A DNA stretch of 64,000 nt from Pseudomonadales bacterium (GTDB lineage: Bacteria; Pseudomonadota; Gammaproteobacteria; Pseudomonadales; JAHRWD01), in assembly GCA_016763075.1 (NCBI GenBank), contig JAESUM010000086.1, positions 26 to 64,025 on the forward strand. Direction: 5' to 3'. The position numbers were made by a program, and so were the translations under genes. Below the pieces are notes generated by a model. That model had not been told where the DNA came from, ran no database searches, and worked only from the letters and a program-made list of their open reading frames with translations. Shown here piece after piece: positions 22,063-28,463 of this stretch (its first letter is position 1; every line of letters starts with the position of its first letter).

Positions 22063-22572
22063 TTAATCACTCATACCGGGTTTACCGCGCATCTTTTTAG
22101 TGCTGGAGCGGGCCTTTTTGTTTTGCAGGCGCTGCATCTTTACTCGGTAAGGTTGGCGGGTGGGTTTGCGGATTTTGGGCTCAGGTTCGGCTTGTTGAAT
22201 GAGGGTAATTAAGCGCTGCTCGGCGTCGCGGCGGTTTTTTATTTGGTCTCGGTAGCGGTGTGCTTCAATCAAGATATGACCACTGCGGGTATAACGCTGA
22301 CCCGCCAGCTTTTTTAAACGCTCTTTTACTGGCTCCGGTAGCGTGTAGCAATTGGCAAGGTCGAAGCGTAACTGAACACTACTGGAAACTTTATTTACAT
22401 TTTGCCCACCTGGCCCCGATGCCCGGACAAATTGAACCTTCAAATTACGCGCTGGAATTTGAATTTTAGGGCTTACCCACAAGCCTTTGGTCTCGTTGGT
22501 TGCGCTATTTACATTGGTTGCGCTATTTACACGAGTCGCGCTATTTACGTTCGTTTCGTTTGGTTCGTTCAT
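22063..22572 (-). CDS. arfB: Alternative ribosome rescue factor ArfB (YaeJ)
   Basis: RASGPGGQNVNKVS GGQ motif and basic C-terminal tail. Confidence 0.93.
   Translation of the reverse strand: MNEPNETNVNSATRVNSATNVNSATNETKGLWVSPKIQIPARNLKVQFVRASGPGGQNVNKVSSSVQLRFDLANCYTLPEPVKERLKKLAGQRYTRSGHILIEAHRYRDQIKNRRDAEQRLITLIQQAEPEPKIRKPTRQPYRVKMQRLQNKKARSSTKKMRGKPGMSD
22495..22548. repeat. Three 18-bp tandem units (core GCGCTATTTAC) in the arfB 5' end
   Basis: Cores at 22502, 22520 and 22538; they encode (VNSAT-x)3. Confidence 0.9.
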
Positions 22573-22614: not shown

Positions 22615-23505
22615 TTACCAACTGTAGCCCAGGTTAACACTACCAAACGCCAGTTCGGAGCCGTTGTCCGGTGATTGCATACCCAAGTCAACGCCCACAT
22701 CTGCATGATCGCCAACCCCTACCGAGCCATAAACAACCAATGCGTTGCTACTGTTGCCCGTCACTAAAGAGCGGCTTCTGCTCCATTGAAGGCCCAATAA
22801 ACCTATCGAGTGGTACAGGCTCAGGTCTAAACCATAACTATGATCTTCAAGGCCTTGGGATAAGCTCAGGGTTACCGGCGAAAATATCTGAAATAACCGA
22901 GGTCGGGTACTTAAATCCAAATTGGTAACGTCCCAGTCGTACCGATCCTTTGAATAAAACGCTGAAGCGCCCATCCAATCTAAGCCGTCATAATTTATAC
23001 GGCCATACAAACCCGTACTGGAAATACCATTTTCAAGTGTTCGCAAAACCGGCAAAGACCGGCCGGTGATCACTTTAATTTCGCGTAGGCGCGGCTCGAT
23101 AGAAAGGCTCCACTGGGAGGCTTGCACAGTGAACTGAAGATTAACGGTTTCGATGGTGAAATCGCCGCTGTTGCCCCAGCGCTCTACGCTTAGCCCAAGA
23201 TCCACGAATTCATTCACAGCGGTAGAAAAACCACCGCCAATGGTTGAGCTACTTAAATCAGAGGTTAGAACCGCGTCATCGTTTTGGCTACCATAAACGG
23301 TAAAGGCTGTTCGGGATTCTGTGCGGTATTGATACGCGAAAGATTGGCTCTTCGCGTTTTGTTCATCAGCCCCTATCGATAAGCTAATGTATGACTGGCC
23401 TGTGGCACTTACGCTTATTAGCAACCAACAAAAGCCACACAAAACCCGCAACGTACTGGCTTGAACACAAGATACAGAAAACTTAAACAGGCTTAATGAT
23501 GGCAT
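22615..23505 (-). CDS. Putative outer-membrane beta-barrel protein
   Basis: Signal-peptide-like N-terminus ending VSATG, alternating amphipathic strands and C-terminal LGYSW beta-signal; start uncertain (23505 or 23544). Confidence 0.65.
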   Translation of the reverse strand: MPSLSLFKFSVSCVQASTLRVLCGFCWLLISVSATGQSYISLSIGADEQNAKSQSFAYQYRTESRTAFTVYGSQNDDAVLTSDLSSSTIGGGFSTAVNEFVDLGLSVERWGNSGDFTIETVNLQFTVQASQWSLSIEPRLREIKVITGRSLPVLRTLENGISSTGLYGRINYDGLDWMGASAFYSKDRYDWDVTNLDLSTRPRLFQIFSPVTLSLSQGLEDHSYGLDLSLYHSIGLLGLQWSRSRSLVTGNSSNALVVYGSVGVGDHADVGVDLGMQSPDNGSELAFGSVNLGYSW

Positions 23506-23518
23506 TAGTTTTGGATAT

Positions 23519-24322
23519 TTATTGGTCTTGGTATTTACGTGCAAGGCCTAGTTTGTATCCGCCTGCCACATCAATATTAATGCCAGAAATATAGGTACCT
23601 TTGGTCAGTAAAAACAAAATAGTGTCGGCAATTTCTTGCGGCATACCCGGGCGCTCTAGTGGGATAATTTGTTCAATGTTATCGGGTAAATCTACCGAGT
23701 TATCTAATTGGCCAGGGCTTACCATGTTGGCCCGAATACCGGATTTACCAAATTCTTGCGCTAAATTTTTGGTTAGCAGCAGTAAAGCGGTCTTGGTGAT
23801 TTGATAGGTCGAGGCATAACTATTAGCGGCCAACAGCTCGGTGCCGGCATAGCCAATGTTAATGATATTAGCGTTCTGGCTTTTAAGCAGCAGCGGTAAA
23901 CAGCTACGAATAAGCGCGTAGGGCGATGTAAGGTTGGCGCACAGCGTGTGTTGAAACTGCTCTAGCGATAACTCAAGGGTTCCCGAAACCGGGTACACCC
24001 CAACATTGTTGACGATGATATCGAGCTTACCGATTTGCTCGATGACTCGTTCGCCTAAGGCTTGAGCGGCTCCCGGATCGCTAAAATCAGCGCTCATGCA
24101 GGTTGCTTGAACCCCCAATGACTTTATTTCAGTGGCTAGTTCCTGTGCGGCTGTTTCGTTTTGGTTGTAATGAATCACCAAATCAGCGCCAGATTGCGCC
24201 AGCGATAACGCAATACACCGACCTGTACGCAACGCTGCACCTGTGACCAATGCGGTTTGCCCGGTTAAAGGTTTGTCTGTGTTTGGCCCGTCATTGGTTG
24301 GCATATTGGGTTGATCAGTCAT
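23519..24322 (-). CDS. SDR oxidoreductase, pteridine reductase/FolM-like
   Basis: TGAALRTG (TGAAxRxG pteridine-reductase-type cofactor motif), IHY and YQITK; sits immediately after folB. Confidence 0.75.
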   Translation of the reverse strand: MTDQPNMPTNDGPNTDKPLTGQTALVTGAALRTGRCIALSLAQSGADLVIHYNQNETAAQELATEIKSLGVQATCMSADFSDPGAAQALGERVIEQIGKLDIIVNNVGVYPVSGTLELSLEQFQHTLCANLTSPYALIRSCLPLLLKSQNANIINIGYAGTELLAANSYASTYQITKTALLLLTKNLAQEFGKSGIRANMVSPGQLDNSVDLPDNIEQIIPLERPGMPQEIADTILFLLTKGTYISGINIDVAGGYKLGLARKYQDQ

Positions 24323-24376
24323 TAATTTTCCTGGCGCTTATCTGAACTGGCATCTGTTGTGGCATATGTGGCCGCA

Positions 24377-24739
24377 TTAGCGTTGTCGGTGTTTTTCCAT
24401 TCTTGCGCCCACTGCATCTGCGTTATCTACCGCGTTGGGTTTACGCGTGGTTACCACTACGCGCTGAACCCGTGGTTCGGTTTCTAAAATAAGATCGCAG
24501 GCTTGTGCCACTAAAGTTTCAACCAATTGATAGGCTTTTTTATGAACCAGTTCTTCCAACAAGGTGGCAATTTCTGCGTAATTTACGGTGTCAGATACAT
24601 GTTCGCTGGCCGCTGCTGCGGTAAAGTCGCAATCCATTTCAACGTCTATAAATAACGGCTGCGGGGTAATTCTTTCTGCCGGCAAAATACCAATAATGCA
24701 TTCAAGTTCGAGCCGGTCTATGAGCACGGTGCCAATCAT
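24377..24739 (-). CDS. folB: Dihydroneopterin aldolase
   Basis: IIGILPAER...Q, DTVNY, LVETL and RKP catalytic residues; 120 aa. Confidence 0.92.
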   Translation of the reverse strand: MIGTVLIDRLELECIIGILPAERITPQPLFIDVEMDCDFTAAAASEHVSDTVNYAEIATLLEELVHKKAYQLVETLVAQACDLILETEPRVQRVVVTTRKPNAVDNADAVGARMEKHRQR

Positions 24740-24826
24740 AATGATTCCTATTGTTTCAAATTCGTTTTAATCAATTTATACATACACTTACAAAATGACT
24801 TTAAGTTTTTTTCTGATCAATTAAAG

Positions 24827-25876
24827 TTACAAATAACCCTTATTACGAGACATATTGACTGCTTCTCGGGTAGGCACATTGAGGTTTAGTTCAATGCATG
24901 CTTCATAACTGTGCCAACCAATGCTACGAGATTCATAATTTTTTTGAAGCTTAACGGGGCCTTTAATACGTGAAAAATAATTTATCAAAATAAAGTGCCT
25001 AGGTTTGTGAAACTCGTCACTTTCTATGCTGTCTTGTGCAATCAACCAAGTAGCGTTATCAAGCTCGATACCGGTCTCTTCTTTAATCTCCCGATAATAG
25101 GCCTGCTCCATGGTTTCGCCGTAGTCAATTTTACCACCGGGCAAACCGTATTTATCCGACCATTTGCGGGTTTTGACCAGCAACAGTTGGTTATCATCGT
25201 TAACAATCAAACCACCCACAGTGGCAATCACTTTCTTTTCTGTGGCTATTAGGTGGTCTCGGTCAAGATAGGTAACGATATCTGAAATATTATGAAATGC
25301 CGCATCGGGCCGGCCCGGCATCATTTTGGCTTCGCTTGAATAACCGTACAATGCTGCGCCTGCTCGGCAGCCAGCAAAATGTGCGGCTTCTAAATCGTGT
25401 GGGGTATCGCCTATATACAGTGTTTCGTCGGCATTCCAACCTTGAGTTTCAATCAGTTTTTTTAGCACCGGGAGTTTATCTGCGGCGTTACCCACCACTA
25501 CTTCAAGTAGCTCATCGAGCTTATGATGTTGCACCAAAGGTTCTAGCACGCCATGGTCCATGGTTGACAAAATTGCTGCATTTAAACCCCGAAATTTTAG
25601 TAGCTCCAGTAAAAACTTGGCGTCTTTAAATAGTTCGGTTTCAAACTGCCGTATTTTAAAACGGCTAAAGAATAGCTCGTCTAATTCATTACGTGGAACT
25701 GGGCCGGTATGCCGGTGGTAAAATTTCTCTACCGGTATGGCAAATTCACGCTTGTAGGTTTCAAGGTCAATAGACTTTGCACCATAATGATTAAGCACGT
25801 CGTTGGTCACCTCTAAGGTGAGGTGTTCGTCGTTGCCGAGCGTGCCAGACCAATCAAAAATTACATTGCGAATCAT
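24827..25876 (-). CDS. HAD-family phosphatase / Nudix hydrolase fusion
   Basis: N-terminal FDWSGTL...IGDTPHD (HAD); C-terminal GKIDYGETMEQAYYREIKEETGI is an intact Nudix box. Confidence 0.88.
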   Translation of the reverse strand: MIRNVIFDWSGTLGNDEHLTLEVTNDVLNHYGAKSIDLETYKREFAIPVEKFYHRHTGPVPRNELDELFFSRFKIRQFETELFKDAKFLLELLKFRGLNAAILSTMDHGVLEPLVQHHKLDELLEVVVGNAADKLPVLKKLIETQGWNADETLYIGDTPHDLEAAHFAGCRAGAALYGYSSEAKMMPGRPDAAFHNISDIVTYLDRDHLIATEKKVIATVGGLIVNDDNQLLLVKTRKWSDKYGLPGGKIDYGETMEQAYYREIKEETGIELDNATWLIAQDSIESDEFHKPRHFILINYFSRIKGPVKLQKNYESRSIGWHSYEACIELNLNVPTREAVNMSRNKGYL

Positions 25877-26628
25877 TCGGCATTACTGCCTTTCTCGGCA
25901 TCCGTTTGTTTGACGCTCATTCGGGCAATGAAATTACGTGTACTCCAAATACCCAGGTAGCAAAGGGGTGTATCTGCTGCAGCTATCGCAATTTTGAATA
26001 GATAAATCACCGCCATAACTTCAAGGCCTTGCACAAAACCCCAACCAAATGCGCCGTAAAACAAGAAGGAGTTTACGATGAAGGTATCCAATAATTGCGA
26101 CACCATGGTAGAGCCATTGTTACGCAGCCAAAGGTGTTTGCCGTTGGTAAGGCGGCGGAAAAAATGGAACAGGTAGTTGTCGCACAGCTGCGCTACCAAA
26201 TACGCACACATGGAGCCCGTCACTAACCACCAACCCACACCAAAGCTGCCTAACCAAGCGTTTTGCATGGCTGCACCGTCTTTAAGATCAGTGGCTATAG
26301 CTGAGCCCCAAATTGGCGAAGCGGGTAACGCAATGGATATTTGCACGATTACCAGCATCAGCAAGGTCATGCCAAAGCCCATGACTACCATGCGGTCGGC
26401 TCGTCGTTTACCGTAAATTTCTGACACGATGTCTGTAACTAAAAACGTTAGCGGATAAGTGATAAGGCCTGCGGTTAGGGTGAAACCAAACCAAACAAAT
26501 AGCTTTTGGCCGATGATATTGGTCAATACCAACAGGGTTACAAATACCATGGCCAACACCACATAAACGCGGTCTGACCAATTAAGTGATGGGTGATTAA
26601 CCGGCCCGCCGGTTTGTAGAATAGACAT
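25873..26628 (-). CDS. yhhQ: YhhQ/DUF165 (VUT) family transporter, queuosine-precursor-transporter-like
   Basis: YPLTFLVTDIVSEIYG, AYLVAQLCD, LWLRNNGSTMVSQLLDT and DTP; ATGA overlap with the HAD-Nudix gene. Confidence 0.88.
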   Translation of the reverse strand: MSILQTGGPVNHPSLNWSDRVYVVLAMVFVTLLVLTNIIGQKLFVWFGFTLTAGLITYPLTFLVTDIVSEIYGKRRADRMVVMGFGMTLLMLVIVQISIALPASPIWGSAIATDLKDGAAMQNAWLGSFGVGWWLVTGSMCAYLVAQLCDNYLFHFFRRLTNGKHLWLRNNGSTMVSQLLDTFIVNSFLFYGAFGWGFVQGLEVMAVIYLFKIAIAAADTPLCYLGIWSTRNFIARMSVKQTDAEKGSNAE

Positions 26629-26681: not shown

Positions 26682-26709
26682 ATTCTACTGGATGATGGTG
26701 GCGAGACAA
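26682..26709 (-). promoter_or_regulatory. Putative sigma70 promoter of the yhhQ-folB cluster
   Basis: Minus strand TTGTCT-16 bp-TAGAAT. Confidence 0.45.
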
Positions 26710-26933: not shown

Positions 26934-28463
26934 ATGAATCTTTACCTTATGACCAATTATCCCCGGCAGATGTTTAACCGCGTATTATGCGTGTATTTAT
27001 ACGCGTTGTTCTGCATATCAATAAGTACCAGCGCTCTGGCACAACGAGACCCAAACAAGGTATTAACCTATGAACACTTTCTTGGGCAAACTCCTAACAC
27101 CGGCGCGGTTAAATCTTTCGAGCTAAACGCCAGCGTATCTAAACTTACTATTGCTGGGGCCAAACCCACCACTCTTTGGTCATACAATAAAAAAGTACCC
27201 GGCCCAGTTTTGCGGGTTCAACAAGGCGACCAAGTAAAAATCACCTTTCGCAATAATTTGCCGGAGCCAACCACCACTCATTGGCACGGTATGCGCGTAC
27301 CCAACGCAATGGACGGCGTACCCGGTGTCACCCAAGCACCGGTAGCCCCCGGTGGTACTTTTGTGTACCAATTCCAAGCATTAGATGCTGGTACCTATTG
27401 GTTCCACCCACATATGAGATCCCACGAGCAAGTTGAACGAGGGCTTTACGGCGTGCTCATCGTCGAATCAATAGATGACCCAGTGTACGACCAAGAATGG
27501 GTTTGGGTACTCGATGATTGGTTGCTCACAAGCCAAGGCGCAGTTGAAGATAGTTTTGGTGTTAGAGATTTAGATACCGGCGGAAGGCTTGGAAACGTAC
27601 TGACCATCAACGGAAAAAACAAACCAGCCTTCGAAGCTAAAGCCGGTGAACGCATTCGAATTCGCATCATCAATGCATCTAATGCGCGTAATTATAAATT
27701 GGACTTCGGTGCTGCGGTAAGCAATAAAGAAGGGGTTATTTTTGCAGTAGATGGTAATTTAACGGCGCTACCTTTGCAGATAAACGGTTTTGAAATAGCT
27801 CCGGGGAACCGTATTGATATAGACCTTACGGTTCCCACTGGAAATATAAAACGTATACCTATTGTAAATACGTTCTTTCACCGCGAAGCCCGCGGCAATG
27901 TATCTACCGGGCTTGAAACACTCGCAACGATCAACATTGTTGGGCAAACACAAACCCCAAAGAGTTTTGATATACCCAAACACGAGCGGATGCCTAATTG
28001 GTCTTCTGCCCACCAACTCCCCATTGATTACAGCTATGACTTCAGCACCAAAATAAATTTTGGTTTCCTTTGGAATGGCGGCCCTACGGTTCATTTTGTT
28101 ATTAATGAAAAACGATACGGCGAACATGAAGTTACGCAGTTAAAGCACCGTAAGTTTTACCATTTACGTTTTACCAACGGCACCGGGTTGTATCATCCAA
28201 TCCATCTTCATGGCATGTTTTTCAAAGTACTTAGCCGCAACGGTGTACAGGTGAACGAGCCATTTTTCAGAGACACCGCGCTGCTAGATTACGATGGCTC
28301 GATAGAAATTGGTGTAGTGCCGGTGGACCTAGGGAAATGGATGCTGCATTGCCACCTTCTTGAACATTCGGCACTGGGCATGATGACACTGGTTGAAGTT
28401 ACTGAGAAATCCAAGAAACCCAAAAACCAATCTAGTAGTGGAGCTTTGGAATGCCAAAATTAA
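26934..28463 (+). CDS. Three-domain multicopper oxidase
   Basis: HWHG, WFHPH, HPIHLHG and HCHLLEHSALGM copper ligands; signal peptide. Confidence 0.93.
   Translation: MNLYLMTNYPRQMFNRVLCVYLYALFCISISTSALAQRDPNKVLTYEHFLGQTPNTGAVKSFELNASVSKLTIAGAKPTTLWSYNKKVPGPVLRVQQGDQVKITFRNNLPEPTTTHWHGMRVPNAMDGVPGVTQAPVAPGGTFVYQFQALDAGTYWFHPHMRSHEQVERGLYGVLIVESIDDPVYDQEWVWVLDDWLLTSQGAVEDSFGVRDLDTGGRLGNVLTINGKNKPAFEAKAGERIRIRIINASNARNYKLDFGAAVSNKEGVIFAVDGNLTALPLQINGFEIAPGNRIDIDLTVPTGNIKRIPIVNTFFHREARGNVSTGLETLATINIVGQTQTPKSFDIPKHERMPNWSSAHQLPIDYSYDFSTKINFGFLWNGGPTVHFVINEKRYGEHEVTQLKHRKFYHLRFTNGTGLYHPIHLHGMFFKVLSRNGVQVNEPFFRDTALLDYDGSIEIGVVPVDLGKWMLHCHLLEHSALGMMTLVEVTEKSKKPKNQSSSGALECQN

What the first reader, a model, noticed from the sequence alone, without database searches (positions are those of the whole stretch)
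22615..26628. Candidate pterin/7-deazapurine salvage operon: YhhQ transporter, HAD-Nudix, FolB, pteridine-reductase-like SDR, beta-barrel
Seen: five co-oriented genes behind one predicted promoter, with an ATGA overlap (yhhQ/HAD-Nudix) and gaps of 87, 54 and about 13 nt. There is no folE, folK, folP, que or tgt in the cluster and no preQ1 riboswitch. Established: YhhQ/DUF165 imports preQ0/preQ1; dihydroneopterin triphosphate is the branch point of the folate and queuosine pathways; Nudix (FolQ/NudB), a phosphatase and FolB act in sequence on it; FolM/PTR1-type SDRs reduce pterins. Inference: this YhhQ homologue may import pterins, which resemble deazaguanines, for the SDR to reduce and FolB to cleave, making an uptake-and-recycling module. 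Alternatively it couples Q-precursor uptake to diverting H2NTP into folate. I do not recognise this combination as described.
Basis: partly seen in the sequence, partly recalled or inferred. Interest (0 to 1): 0.8.

Follow-up and report, generated by a model that had tools for sequence, protein, structure and literature searches.

The report
Pterin operon with YhhQ-type transporter
A conserved operon joins a transporter of the queuosine-precursor family to three pterin enzymes, in bacteria that have lost the usual enzyme (QueD) for the pterin step of queuosine synthesis, so it may hold an unknown transporter function or an unknown route into that pathway.

Summary
Five co-oriented minus-strand genes show an ATGA overlap and gaps of 87, 54 and 13 nt. 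The promoter-like site is conserved in two congeners.

The core is a pterin module found in several phyla:
- a HAD-Nudix fusion;
- the genome's only FolB, with its catalytic residues intact;
- a FolM/PTR1-type reductase carrying the TGX3RXG motif.

FolB follows the fusion in 62 of 75 loci with enough flank, and the reductase follows in 27 of 71. So these are mainly de novo enzymes acting on dihydroneopterin triphosphate, not a salvage set.

The YhhQ gene belongs to one well-supported subclade. Only in that subclade does it sit beside FolB and the reductase: 15 of 32 rows, against 0 of 57 outside it. Its substrate stays open, because it is the only family member in each genome examined and TGT was found in 11 of 12 genomes.

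New here: QueD (PF01242) was found in none of the three genomes of this genus, and in 1 of 12 related gammaproteobacterial genomes carrying the closest fusions. It was found in 65 of 68 other genomes. QueE and QueC persist in six QueD-less genomes; QueF and TGT were each checked in five. An unknown source of 6-carboxytetrahydropterin is therefore needed, and this operon is the leading candidate.

The barrel gene is a variable add-on. Nothing is shown biochemically.

The parts
26682..26709 (-). Promoter-like site TTGTCT-16 nt-TAGAAT upstream of yhhQ
   Evidence: Found. Both hexamers are invariant in the two congeners, while the leader downstream of them is poorly conserved.
25873..26628 (-). 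YhhQ/QPTR-family (Vut_1, COG1738) membrane transporter, 251 aa
   Evidence: PF02592 scores 166 bits. TIGR00697 scores 162 bits against a cut-off of 51, but the E. coli-type model NF008406 scores only 47.5 against 252. It is the only Vut_1 gene in the genome. It sits in the 32-row clade that holds every FolB/SDR-linked member.
24827..25876 (-). HAD-Nudix two-domain phosphohydrolase, 349 aa; its start overlaps the yhhQ stop (ATGA)
   Evidence: HAD_2 covers residues 5-173 and NUDIX covers 218-327. The Nudix box is intact. HAD motif I reads DW[S/A]GT across 17 aligned relatives. FolB lies within 1 kb downstream in 62 of 75 loci with enough flank, and shares the open frame in 2.
24377..24739 (-). 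FolB, dihydroneopterin aldolase, 120 aa; the only FolB-family gene in the genome
   Evidence: TIGR00525 scores 78.2 against a cut-off of 72.15; the FolX model scores 48.6 against 152. Sole copy in the genome. E22, Y54, E74 and K100 align with E. coli FolB. E22, Y54 and E74 are kept in 69 of 69 linked FolBs and K100 in 68 of 69.
23519..24322 (-). FolM/PTR1-type short-chain reductase, 267 aa
   Evidence: The best NCBIfam model is NF012208 (TmpR dihydropteridine/dihydrofolate reductase) at 206.7 bits, below its 325 cut-off; the next best model scores 148. The motif TGAALRTG fits TGX3RXG and YQITK fits YxxxK (read from the translation). It is the only one of 18 SDR homologues in the genome with that Arg.
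22615..23505 (-). Predicted outer-membrane beta-barrel protein, 296 aa; a lineage-variable member
   Evidence: No Pfam or NCBIfam match. Only 4 homologues were found. It occupies the same position in metagenome contig L231 at 52% identity, but is absent from both congeners. The AlphaFold2 model has pLDDT 63, with an N-terminal helix and 14 strands. Foldseek hits are outer-membrane barrels with TM 0.4-0.53.
22063..22572 (-). arfB, a ribosome-rescue peptidyl-tRNA hydrolase; a co-oriented neighbour, probably not part of the module
   Evidence: NF006718 scores 161 bits against a cut-off of 100. It follows the SDR in the two congeners and in L231, but phmmer found it in none of the other 80 fusion loci.

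Best explanation
This is a conserved operon for unconjugated pterins at the dihydroneopterin triphosphate (H2NTP) branch point.

Inferred steps:
1. The Nudix domain removes pyrophosphate from H2NTP. The HAD domain removes the remaining phosphate, or handles the released phosphate product.
2. FolB, the only aldolase in the genome, cleaves dihydroneopterin to 6-hydroxymethyl-dihydropterin for folate. As in known FolBs, it can also epimerise it to dihydromonapterin.
3. The FolM/PTR1-type reductase turns a dihydropterin into a tetrahydropterin.

The translationally coupled YhhQ-family transporter carries a related 2-amino-4-oxo bicyclic base across the inner membrane. That base is either a queuosine precursor, as in known family members, or a pterin. 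The barrel protein, where present, would give outer-membrane passage.

Shown: the gene identities, motifs, gene order, conservation and copy numbers. Inferred: every substrate and every direction of transport.
For: Domains and motifs:
- The Nudix box is intact, and the HAD nucleophile Asp, motif II Ser, Lys and GDxxxD are kept in 17 aligned fusions.

Linkage of the fusion to FolB:
- 368 stretches in genome contigs encode a relative of the fusion.
- In the 81 loci examined, FolB lies within 1 kb downstream in 62 of 75 with enough flank.
- Two loci carry the fusion and FolB in one ORF. Protein P0099 carries HAD, NUDIX and FolB domains.
- FolB is the sole family member in 20 of 20 fusion genomes and in this genome.
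- The genome also has FolK, FolP and FolA.
- The FolB catalytic residues are conserved.

The reductase:
- It follows FolB in 27 of 71 loci, spread across Pseudomonadota, Planctomycetota, Fibrobacterota and Nitrospirota.
- TGX3RXG occurs in 34 of 35 module reductases and in 0 of 5 non-module SDRs. PMC1971073 names this motif as the PTR1/FolM signature (passages read).

The transporter:
- It lies directly upstream of the fusion in 8 of 77 loci, in two phyla.
- It lies beside FolB and the reductase, without the fusion, in 5 further loci.
- All 15 linked rows fall in one 32-row clade with SH-aLRT 98. None of the 57 rows outside it is linked.

The promoter hexamers are conserved in the two congeners.
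Against: - No biochemical or expression data exist.
- The HAD domain has Ser or Ala where phosphatases have the general-acid Asp two residues after the nucleophile (the rule itself is recalled). A plain phosphomonoesterase role is therefore uncertain.
- The Nudix domain is not an orthologue of NudB: NF006961 scores 20.7 bits against a cut-off of 103.
- The reductase is below the cut-off of its best model (206.7 against 325).
- No phenylalanine hydroxylase was found in the three genomes of the genus, and FolA is present. So no consumer of a tetrahydropterin is known here.
- The transporter is the only Vut_1 gene in every genome where one was found (16 of 21), and TGT is present in 11 of 12. It could therefore be an ordinary queuosine-precursor importer placed here for regulatory reasons.
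- 17 of the 32 clade members have no pterin neighbours. The neighbours I scanned in 7 of those loci are unrelated genes.
- The loci are related to one another and are mostly from metagenome-assembled genomes.
Confidence: 0.6

Rival explanations
1. The operon, or part of it, supplies 6-carboxy-tetrahydropterin (CPH4) to QueE in lineages that have lost QueD. There are two possible routes:
(a) Salvage. The YhhQ-type transporter imports an oxidised 6-substituted pterin such as 6-carboxypterin, and the PTR1-type reductase reduces it to CPH4.
(b) Bypass. HAD-Nudix, FolB and the reductase together convert H2NTP to CPH4.
For: QueD is missing where the closest fusions occur:
- PF01242 (QueD, QueD2 and all PTPS classes, per passages of PMC9894224) has no match in G000, G001 (99% complete) or G002 (97% complete).
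- Across the gammaproteobacterial group with the closest fusions it was found in 1 of 12 genomes: G051 has it, while G000-G002, G031-G033, G049, G050 and G060-G062 do not.
- It was found in 28 of 28 other genera of the order and in 37 of 40 further genomes.
- tblastn with ORFs from 6 PTPS loci finds nothing credible in G000.

The rest of the pathway persists:
- G000 keeps cpoB-queE-queC, with QueE at 333 bits (cut-off 300) and QueC at 200 bits (cut-off 150).
- QueE and QueC are also kept in G001, G002, G031, G033 and G050.
- QueF was found in 13 of 13 genomes. TGT and FolE are present in the genus.

QueE needs CPH4, so a source must exist. The same paper reports slow oxidation of CPH4 to 6-carboxypterin. 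Known YhhQ homologues usually sit with queuosine genes (PMC5372724).
Against: - The module coexists with QueD in most other genomes: 12 of 13 fusion genomes without an adjacent YhhQ, and 7 of 9 linked-YhhQ genomes outside the gammaproteobacterial group. QueD replacement is therefore not its general role.
- Three QueD-less genomes (L043, L047, L069) have the fusion with no FolB, reductase or YhhQ within the 7-kb flanks searched. FolB, where traced, lies about 38 kb away.
- Neither route has a precedent. Route (b) needs chemistry not known for FolB or for SDRs.
- The completeness of most of these assembled genomes is unknown.
- The QueD-less genomes may represent only two to four independent losses.
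- An unrelated QueD analogue elsewhere in the genome is not excluded.
Confidence: 0.3
2. The transporter is an ordinary preQ0/preQ1 importer, like E. coli YhhQ. It compensates for the lost QueD by salvage. It is only co-regulated with the folate and pterin enzymes because both draw on H2NTP.
For: - It passes the family's equivalog model TIGR00697, at 162 bits against a cut-off of 51.
- It is the only family member in the genome.
- TGT is present in 11 of 12 genomes with a YhhQ of the linked clade, 10 of them cluster genomes.
- Of the 14 QueD-less genomes, all 9 checked for Vut_1 hold one. All 5 genomes without Vut_1 have QueD.
- Every transport substrate shown so far for this family is a queuosine precursor (PMC5372724, PMC11570991; passages read).
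Against: - It does not explain why QueE and QueC stay intact in at least six QueD-less genomes. Imported preQ0 or preQ1 enters the pathway after both.
- It does not explain the repeated, translationally coupled placement beside FolB and the reductase in three phyla.
- No preQ1 riboswitch is present.
- It scores far below the E. coli-type model, at 47.5 against 252.
Confidence: 0.35
3. The transporter imports environmental pterins, the reductase reduces them and FolB cleaves them, giving a folate-sparing salvage route. A mirror-image version has the operon making a tetrahydropterin, such as tetrahydromonapterin, and exporting it.
For: - Transporter, reductase and FolB occur together without HAD-Nudix in 5 loci (L124, L138, L139, L152, L156). 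That is the minimal set for neopterin salvage.
- A 2026 review states that how pterins cross the membrane is unknown, that no pterin efflux system has been identified, and that the phosphatase of the monapterin pathway is unidentified (PMC13259868, passages read).
- A barrel protein is added in two lineages.
Against: - FolE is present in most carriers: 12 of 15, plus both congeners.
- FolB is the housekeeping copy.
- E. coli FolM and a Xylella FolM-like enzyme do not reduce oxidised pterins (PMC1971073).
- No pterin-dependent hydroxylase is present. I did not search for a periplasmic pterin sensor.
- Nothing indicates the direction of transport.
Confidence: 0.2

Closest known systems
FolQ (Lactococcus YlgG) / NudB (E. 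coli): Nudix dihydroneopterin triphosphate pyrophosphatases
   Same: Both have a Nudix domain with an intact Nudix box, encoded next to a pterin-branch folate gene. FolQ was itself found through such clustering (PMC1971073).
   Different: This one is fused to a HAD domain. It is not an orthologue of NudB: 20.7 bits against a cut-off of 103. The NudB model passes its cut-off in none of 31 genomes of the order. The partner here is FolB, not folKE-folP-folC.
FolX-FolM tetrahydromonapterin pathway (E. coli, Pseudomonas aeruginosa) and PruA of Agrobacterium
   Same: Both pair a FolB-family T-fold enzyme with a TGX3RXG reductase acting downstream of H2NTP. A dephosphorylation step is needed in both, and its enzyme is still unidentified in those systems.
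   Different: The T-fold enzyme here scores as FolB, not FolX (78.2 against 48.6 bits), and it is the only copy. A candidate phosphatase and a transporter are encoded in the operon. No phenylalanine hydroxylase is present.
YhhQ/QPTR queuosine-precursor transporters (COG1738)
   Same: It belongs to the same family by Pfam and by the TIGR00697 equivalog model. It is a single copy, in a genome whose genus has TGT.
   Different: It forms a distinct subclade. It neighbours FolB, a pterin reductase and HAD-Nudix rather than que genes or a preQ1 riboswitch. The terms folB, nudix, pterin and folate do not occur in the main text of either family survey I searched.
Leishmania PTR1 with its biopterin/folate transporters (pterin salvage)
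   Same: Both combine a pteridine reductase bearing the same motif with a dedicated transporter.
   Different: The transporter family is different. Whether this reductase accepts oxidised pterins is untested. The organism can make pterins itself.
QueD/QueD2 (PTPS-I) 6-carboxytetrahydropterin synthases
   Same: They act on the same substrate pool (H2NTP), and FolB shares the T-fold architecture. These are the enzymes missing from this lineage.
   Different: No gene in the operon, or anywhere in the genome, matches PF01242.

Membership tests
Nudix hydrolase (active) | Nudix box GX5EX7REUXEEXGU | tested here: met
   G248, E254, R262, E263, E266 and E267 are invariant in 17 aligned fusions. PF00293 scores 67 bits. 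The consensus itself is recalled.
NudB-type dihydroneopterin triphosphate diphosphatase | Passes the NCBIfam equivalog NF006961 | tested here: not met
   20.7 bits against a cut-off of 103.
HAD phosphatase | Motif I DxDx(T/V), with the second Asp as general acid, plus motifs II-IV | tested here: inconclusive
   The nucleophile D8, S104, K134, D157 and D161 are conserved. The +2 position is Ser or Ala in all 17 aligned sequences. The rule that phosphatases need Asp there is recalled.
FolB dihydroneopterin aldolase | Passes the equivalog model and keeps the catalytic Glu, Tyr, Glu and Lys | tested here: met
   TIGR00525 scores 78.2 against 72.15. E22, Y54, E74 and K100 align to E. coli FolB. E22, Y54 and E74 are kept in 69 of 69, and K100 in 68 of 69. 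The residue roles are recalled.
FolX epimerase | Passes the NF008418 equivalog | tested here: not met
   48.6 bits against a cut-off of 152. Solved FolX structures score 23-26 bits, against 30-46 for most solved FolB-type aldolases.
FolM/PTR1-type pteridine reductase | TGX3RXG in place of TGX3GXG, plus YxxxK | tested here: met
   TGAALRTG and YQITK are present (read from the translation). The Arg motif occurs in 34 of 35 module reductases. The motif definition comes from PMC1971073.
FolM/PTR1-type pteridine reductase | Passes a curated family model | tested here: not met
   NF012208 scores 206.7 against 325, and NF006598 scores 130.7 against 288. NF012208 is still the best model, by 58 bits.
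FolM/PTR1-type pteridine reductase | NADPH-dependent reduction of a pterin | not testable with these tools
   Needs an enzyme assay.
QPTR/YhhQ queuosine-precursor transporter | Passes the family models | tested here: met
   PF02592 scores 166 bits. TIGR00697 scores 162 against 51. The E. coli-type model NF008406 is not met, at 47.5 against 252.
QPTR/YhhQ queuosine-precursor transporter | Genomic link to queuosine genes or a preQ1 riboswitch | tested here: not met
   No Rfam match was found. The neighbours are pterin enzymes. No preQ1 riboswitch was found in 14 sister loci either.
QPTR/YhhQ queuosine-precursor transporter | Transport of preQ0, preQ1 or queuine | not testable with these tools
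   Needs a complementation or uptake assay.
Outer-membrane beta-barrel | Signal peptide, an even number of antiparallel strands, and an aromatic C-terminal residue | tested here: inconclusive
   The model has an N-terminal helix at 5-30 and 14 strands, and the protein ends in ...GYSW. Mean pLDDT is only 63, from 4 sequences. Foldseek returns nearly only barrel proteins, with TM at most 0.53.

The most novel reading that the evidence does not exclude
In bacteria that have lost QueD, this operon provides a previously unknown entry into queuosine synthesis. A YhhQ-family transporter that carries a pterin, for example 6-carboxypterin, would work with a PTR1-type reductase to regenerate 6-carboxytetrahydropterin for QueE. 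Alternatively, HAD-Nudix, FolB and the reductase would make it from H2NTP. Either route would give the first bacterial pterin transporter, or a QueD-independent route. The HAD-Nudix fusion would also fill the unassigned dephosphorylation steps of folate and monapterin synthesis.
Probability: 0.3. Interest if true: 0.85.

Novelty: new variant of a known kind. Interest (0 to 1): 0.7.

Why it matters
The operon bears on three open problems.

1. The last dephosphorylation step of the folate pterin branch is still attributed to a non-specific phosphatase (PMC1971073). The phosphatase of the monapterin pathway is also unidentified (PMC13259868). A HAD-Nudix fusion tied to FolB in hundreds of genomes is a concrete candidate for both.

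2. How pterins cross bacterial membranes is unknown, and no pterin efflux system has been identified. A YhhQ subclade tied to pterin enzymes can be tested directly.

3. A lineage that keeps FolE, QueE, QueC, QueF and TGT but has no QueD-family gene implies an undescribed source of 6-carboxytetrahydropterin. The operon gives a short list of genes to test.

It also warns against naming every COG1738 member a preQ0/preQ1 transporter.

Tried and rejected
- **Pterin auxotrophy.** G000 lacks folE type I, folE2 and tgt. Both congeners have folE and tgt. The gene flanking folE in G001 has only 38-41% paralogues in G000. I therefore read these absences as assembly gaps in a 95% complete genome, not as evidence of salvage.
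- **Reductase as a replacement for dihydrofolate reductase.** Rejected, because folA is present in all three genomes of the genus.
- **Cofactor supply for phenylalanine hydroxylase.** No Biopterin_H match in the three genomes.
- **Complementary distribution with NudB.** Uninformative: the model passes its cut-off in 0 of 31 genomes of the order.
- **Riboswitch or conserved leader.** No Rfam match, and the leader is not conserved among congeners. No preQ1 riboswitch in 14 sister loci either.
- **Other conserved neighbours of the fusion.** Only lineage-specific, unrelated genes were found: a Lon substrate-binding domain, STAS, NifU, LOG, YkuD and an ECF sigma factor.
- **Neighbours of unlinked members of the transporter clade.** Unrelated genes.
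- **A second transporter type in front of the fusion.** Only one locus, L043, has one (Mem_trans). The ORFs at the same place in L047 and L069 are not homologous to it and look like wrong frames.
- **Solved structure for the transporter.** None at E<=0.1.
- **RNA evidence.** No RNA holder was listed.
- **Pribat et al. 2010 (PMC2805310).** Not held, so not read.
- **Supplementary tables.** I did not consult those of the family surveys. They may list this subclade.
- **Incomplete sampling.** Several close relatives came only from the fusion-side scan.

Full report
**1. What is in the window**

Six co-oriented minus-strand genes lie between 26628 and 22063:
- a Vut_1/YhhQ-family transporter, 251 aa;
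- a HAD-Nudix fusion, 349 aa, whose ATG overlaps the transporter's stop as ATGA;
- FolB, 120 aa, after 87 nt;
- a short-chain reductase, 267 aa, after 54 nt;
- a 296-aa protein with no family match, after 13 nt if it starts at the ATG at 23505;
- arfB, after 42 nt.

A ubiquinone hydroxylase gene follows on the same strand. Family assignments come from Pfam and NCBIfam.

One sigma-70-like site lies upstream. The scan as a whole is not above chance, but both hexamers are invariant in the two congeners while the leader between them and the start codon is not. No Rfam family matches at E<=1.

**2. The enzymes form a conserved module**

The HAD-Nudix fusion has many full-length relatives. A protein search gave 654 proteins at E<=0.001. 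One of them, P0099, also carries a FolB domain.

A scan of one genome per species found 368 stretches encoding a relative. I examined 81 loci: 78 of the best 80 from that scan, plus L008 and L009, which also ranks among the 80. The scan's other locus was dropped because it is the same contig as L065. The loci come from Pseudomonadota (including Immundisolibacter), Planctomycetota, Fibrobacterota, Nitrospirota and Verrucomicrobiota.
- FolB lies within 1 kb downstream in 62 of the 75 loci with enough flank, and within the same open frame in two.
- The 13 loci without FolB include three Immundisolibacter-like loci and several from Verrucomicrobia subdivision 6.
- In 20 of 20 fusion-bearing genomes searched there is exactly one FolB-family match. 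The same holds for the window's genome, which also has FolK, FolP and FolA.

This FolB is therefore the housekeeping aldolase. It passes the FolB equivalog model and not the FolX model. The four residues that align with the catalytic Glu, Tyr, Glu and Lys of E. coli FolB (roles recalled) are kept in 69 of 69 linked FolBs, with the Lys in 68 of 69.

Three earlier notes of this scan, on other genomes, had already flagged the HAD-Nudix/FolB pair. My counts agree with them, but those notes are not independent evidence.

**3. The reductase**

It follows FolB in 27 of 71 loci with enough flank, in four phyla but not in Verrucomicrobiota.
- Its best NCBIfam model is the FolM-like dihydropteridine/dihydrofolate reductase TmpR. 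The score is 206.7 bits, below the 325 cut-off but 58 bits above any generic model.
- It carries TGAALRTG, which fits the TGX3RXG motif that PMC1971073 gives as the signature of PTR1 and FolM (passages read).
- The Arg form is present in 34 of 35 reductase ORFs beside the module or the transporter, and in none of 5 other SDRs in the same loci.
- In the window's genome it is the only one of 18 SDR homologues with that motif.

**4. The transporter**

From the fusion side, a YhhQ homologue lies directly upstream in 8 of 77 loci. Six are from Pseudomonadota. Two are from Planctomycetota, where HAD, Nudix and FolB form one ORF.

Beyond the two congener loci carrying the full cluster, five have the transporter beside FolB and the reductase without the fusion: L124, L138, L139, L152 and L156, mostly Myxococcota.

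I built a tree of 89 transporter sequences with a quick search, using SH-aLRT support only. I dropped L122, which duplicates L008, and L149, which is split.
- All 15 linked rows fall in one 32-row clade with support of 98.
- None of the other 57 rows is linked.
- Outside that clade I saw a PTPS gene and FolE flanking the transporter in 5 Marinimicrobia-type loci. About 22 Flavobacteriaceae loci have a divergent HPPK-deoxynucleoside kinase gene.

The transporter is the only Vut_1 gene in each genome where one was found (16 of 21). TGT is present in 11 of 12 genomes with a YhhQ of the linked clade. The family's known role is therefore not excluded.

Neither family survey I searched mentions folB, nudix, pterin or folate in its main text (PMC5372724 and PMC11130926). 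Their supplements were not seen. Searches for pterin transporters of this family found nothing.

**5. An unexpected gap: QueD**

PF01242 covers QueD, QueD2 and the other PTPS classes (PMC9894224, passages read).
- It has no match in any of the three genomes of the genus, which are 95, 99 and 97% complete.
- tblastn with ORFs from six PTPS loci finds nothing credible in the window's genome.
- All 28 other genera sampled in the order have a match over the cut-off.
- Among the gammaproteobacterial genomes with the closest fusions it was found in 1 of 12. Among all other genomes searched it was found in 65 of 68.

Yet the window's genome keeps cpoB-queE-queC with scores above the curated cut-offs.
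- The same arrangement, with QueE, is present in G001, G002, G031, G033, G050 and G051.
- QueC passes its cut-off in 10 of 13 genomes.
- QueF was found in 13 of 13.
- TGT and FolE are present in the genus.

QueE uses 6-carboxytetrahydropterin, so these organisms need a source of it. Imported preQ0 or preQ1 would not explain the retention of QueE and QueC.

The operon holds a pterin-binding T-fold enzyme, a pterin reductase, an H2NTP phosphohydrolase and a member of the queuosine-precursor transporter family. That makes it the leading candidate, either by salvage or by a bypass:
- Salvage would reduce an oxidised 6-carboxypterin. The QueD2 paper reports slow oxidation of CPH4 to that compound.
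- A bypass would start from H2NTP.

Against a general role, the module coexists with QueD in most other phyla. Three QueD-less genomes have the fusion with no FolB, reductase or YhhQ in the flanks searched. The losses may be few events. I found no paper on a QueD-independent route.

**6. The barrel gene**

It has only four homologues in the large protein collection. One is on metagenome contig L231, which reads HAD-Nudix, FolB, reductase, barrel (52% identity), arfB, hydroxylase. The two congeners lack it at that position.

The AlphaFold2 model is of modest confidence, at pLDDT 63 from four sequences. It shows an N-terminal helix and 14 strands. Foldseek returns outer-membrane barrels such as OpdK and OmpG, with TM 0.4-0.53. 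I read it as a fast-evolving, optional outer-membrane channel. Its substrate is unknown.

**7. Weak points**

Every substrate is inferred.
- The HAD domain has Ser or Ala at the position two residues after the nucleophile. By the rule I recall, this is not typical of phosphomonoesterases. It could instead act on pyrophosphate or on another phosphorylated product.
- The Nudix domain is not a NudB orthologue.
- Most genomes are metagenome assemblies of unknown completeness.
- The loci are phylogenetically related, so the counts overstate independence.
- No RNA data could be listed.

**8. Verdict**

The cluster is real and conserved. Its enzymes are best read as the H2NTP-to-dihydroneopterin, aldolase and dihydropterin-reductase steps.

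The transporter's repeated coupling to these enzymes, together with the loss of QueD in this lineage, is new. It is not explained by what is in print as far as my searches reach, and it can be tested with standard complementation and enzyme assays.

Noticed in passing
whole genome G000 and congeners G001, G002: No PF01242 (QueD/PTPS) gene was found in any of the three genomes. QueE, QueC and QueF are present in all three. TGT and FolE are present in the two congeners and are missing only from the G000 assembly. All 28 other genera sampled in the order have a PF01242 match.
   Followed up: yes
whole genome G000: folE (types I and II) and tgt are not found in this 95%-complete assembly, but both congeners have folE type I and tgt. 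The region that flanks folE in G001 is not represented in G000, so these look like assembly gaps.
   Followed up: partly
L164, L175, L205, L206, L207 (Marinimicrobia-type genomes): A YhhQ homologue sits between a PTPS/QueD-family gene and GTP cyclohydrolase I.
   Followed up: partly
about 22 Flavobacteriaceae loci, e.g. L182:3319-4485: A YhhQ homologue lies divergently next to a fused HPPK (FolK)-deoxynucleoside kinase gene.
   Followed up: no
L043:5647-6801: A Mem_trans (PF03547) membrane protein gene lies directly upstream of the HAD-Nudix fusion in one QueD-less gammaproteobacterial genome, at the place where YhhQ sits elsewhere.
   Followed up: partly
L064:6572-8383, L068:6926-8392, protein P0099: HAD, Nudix and FolB are encoded as a single open frame, a triple fusion, in Planctomycetota and in one metagenomic protein.
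   Followed up: partly
window 26934-28463 (+): A multicopper oxidase gene (three cupredoxin domains, 509 aa) is transcribed divergently from the operon's promoter region.
   Followed up: no
window 22063-22572 (-): The arfB product has an N-terminal stretch of near-repeats (NVNSAT, three times) ahead of the RF-1 domain.
   Followed up: no
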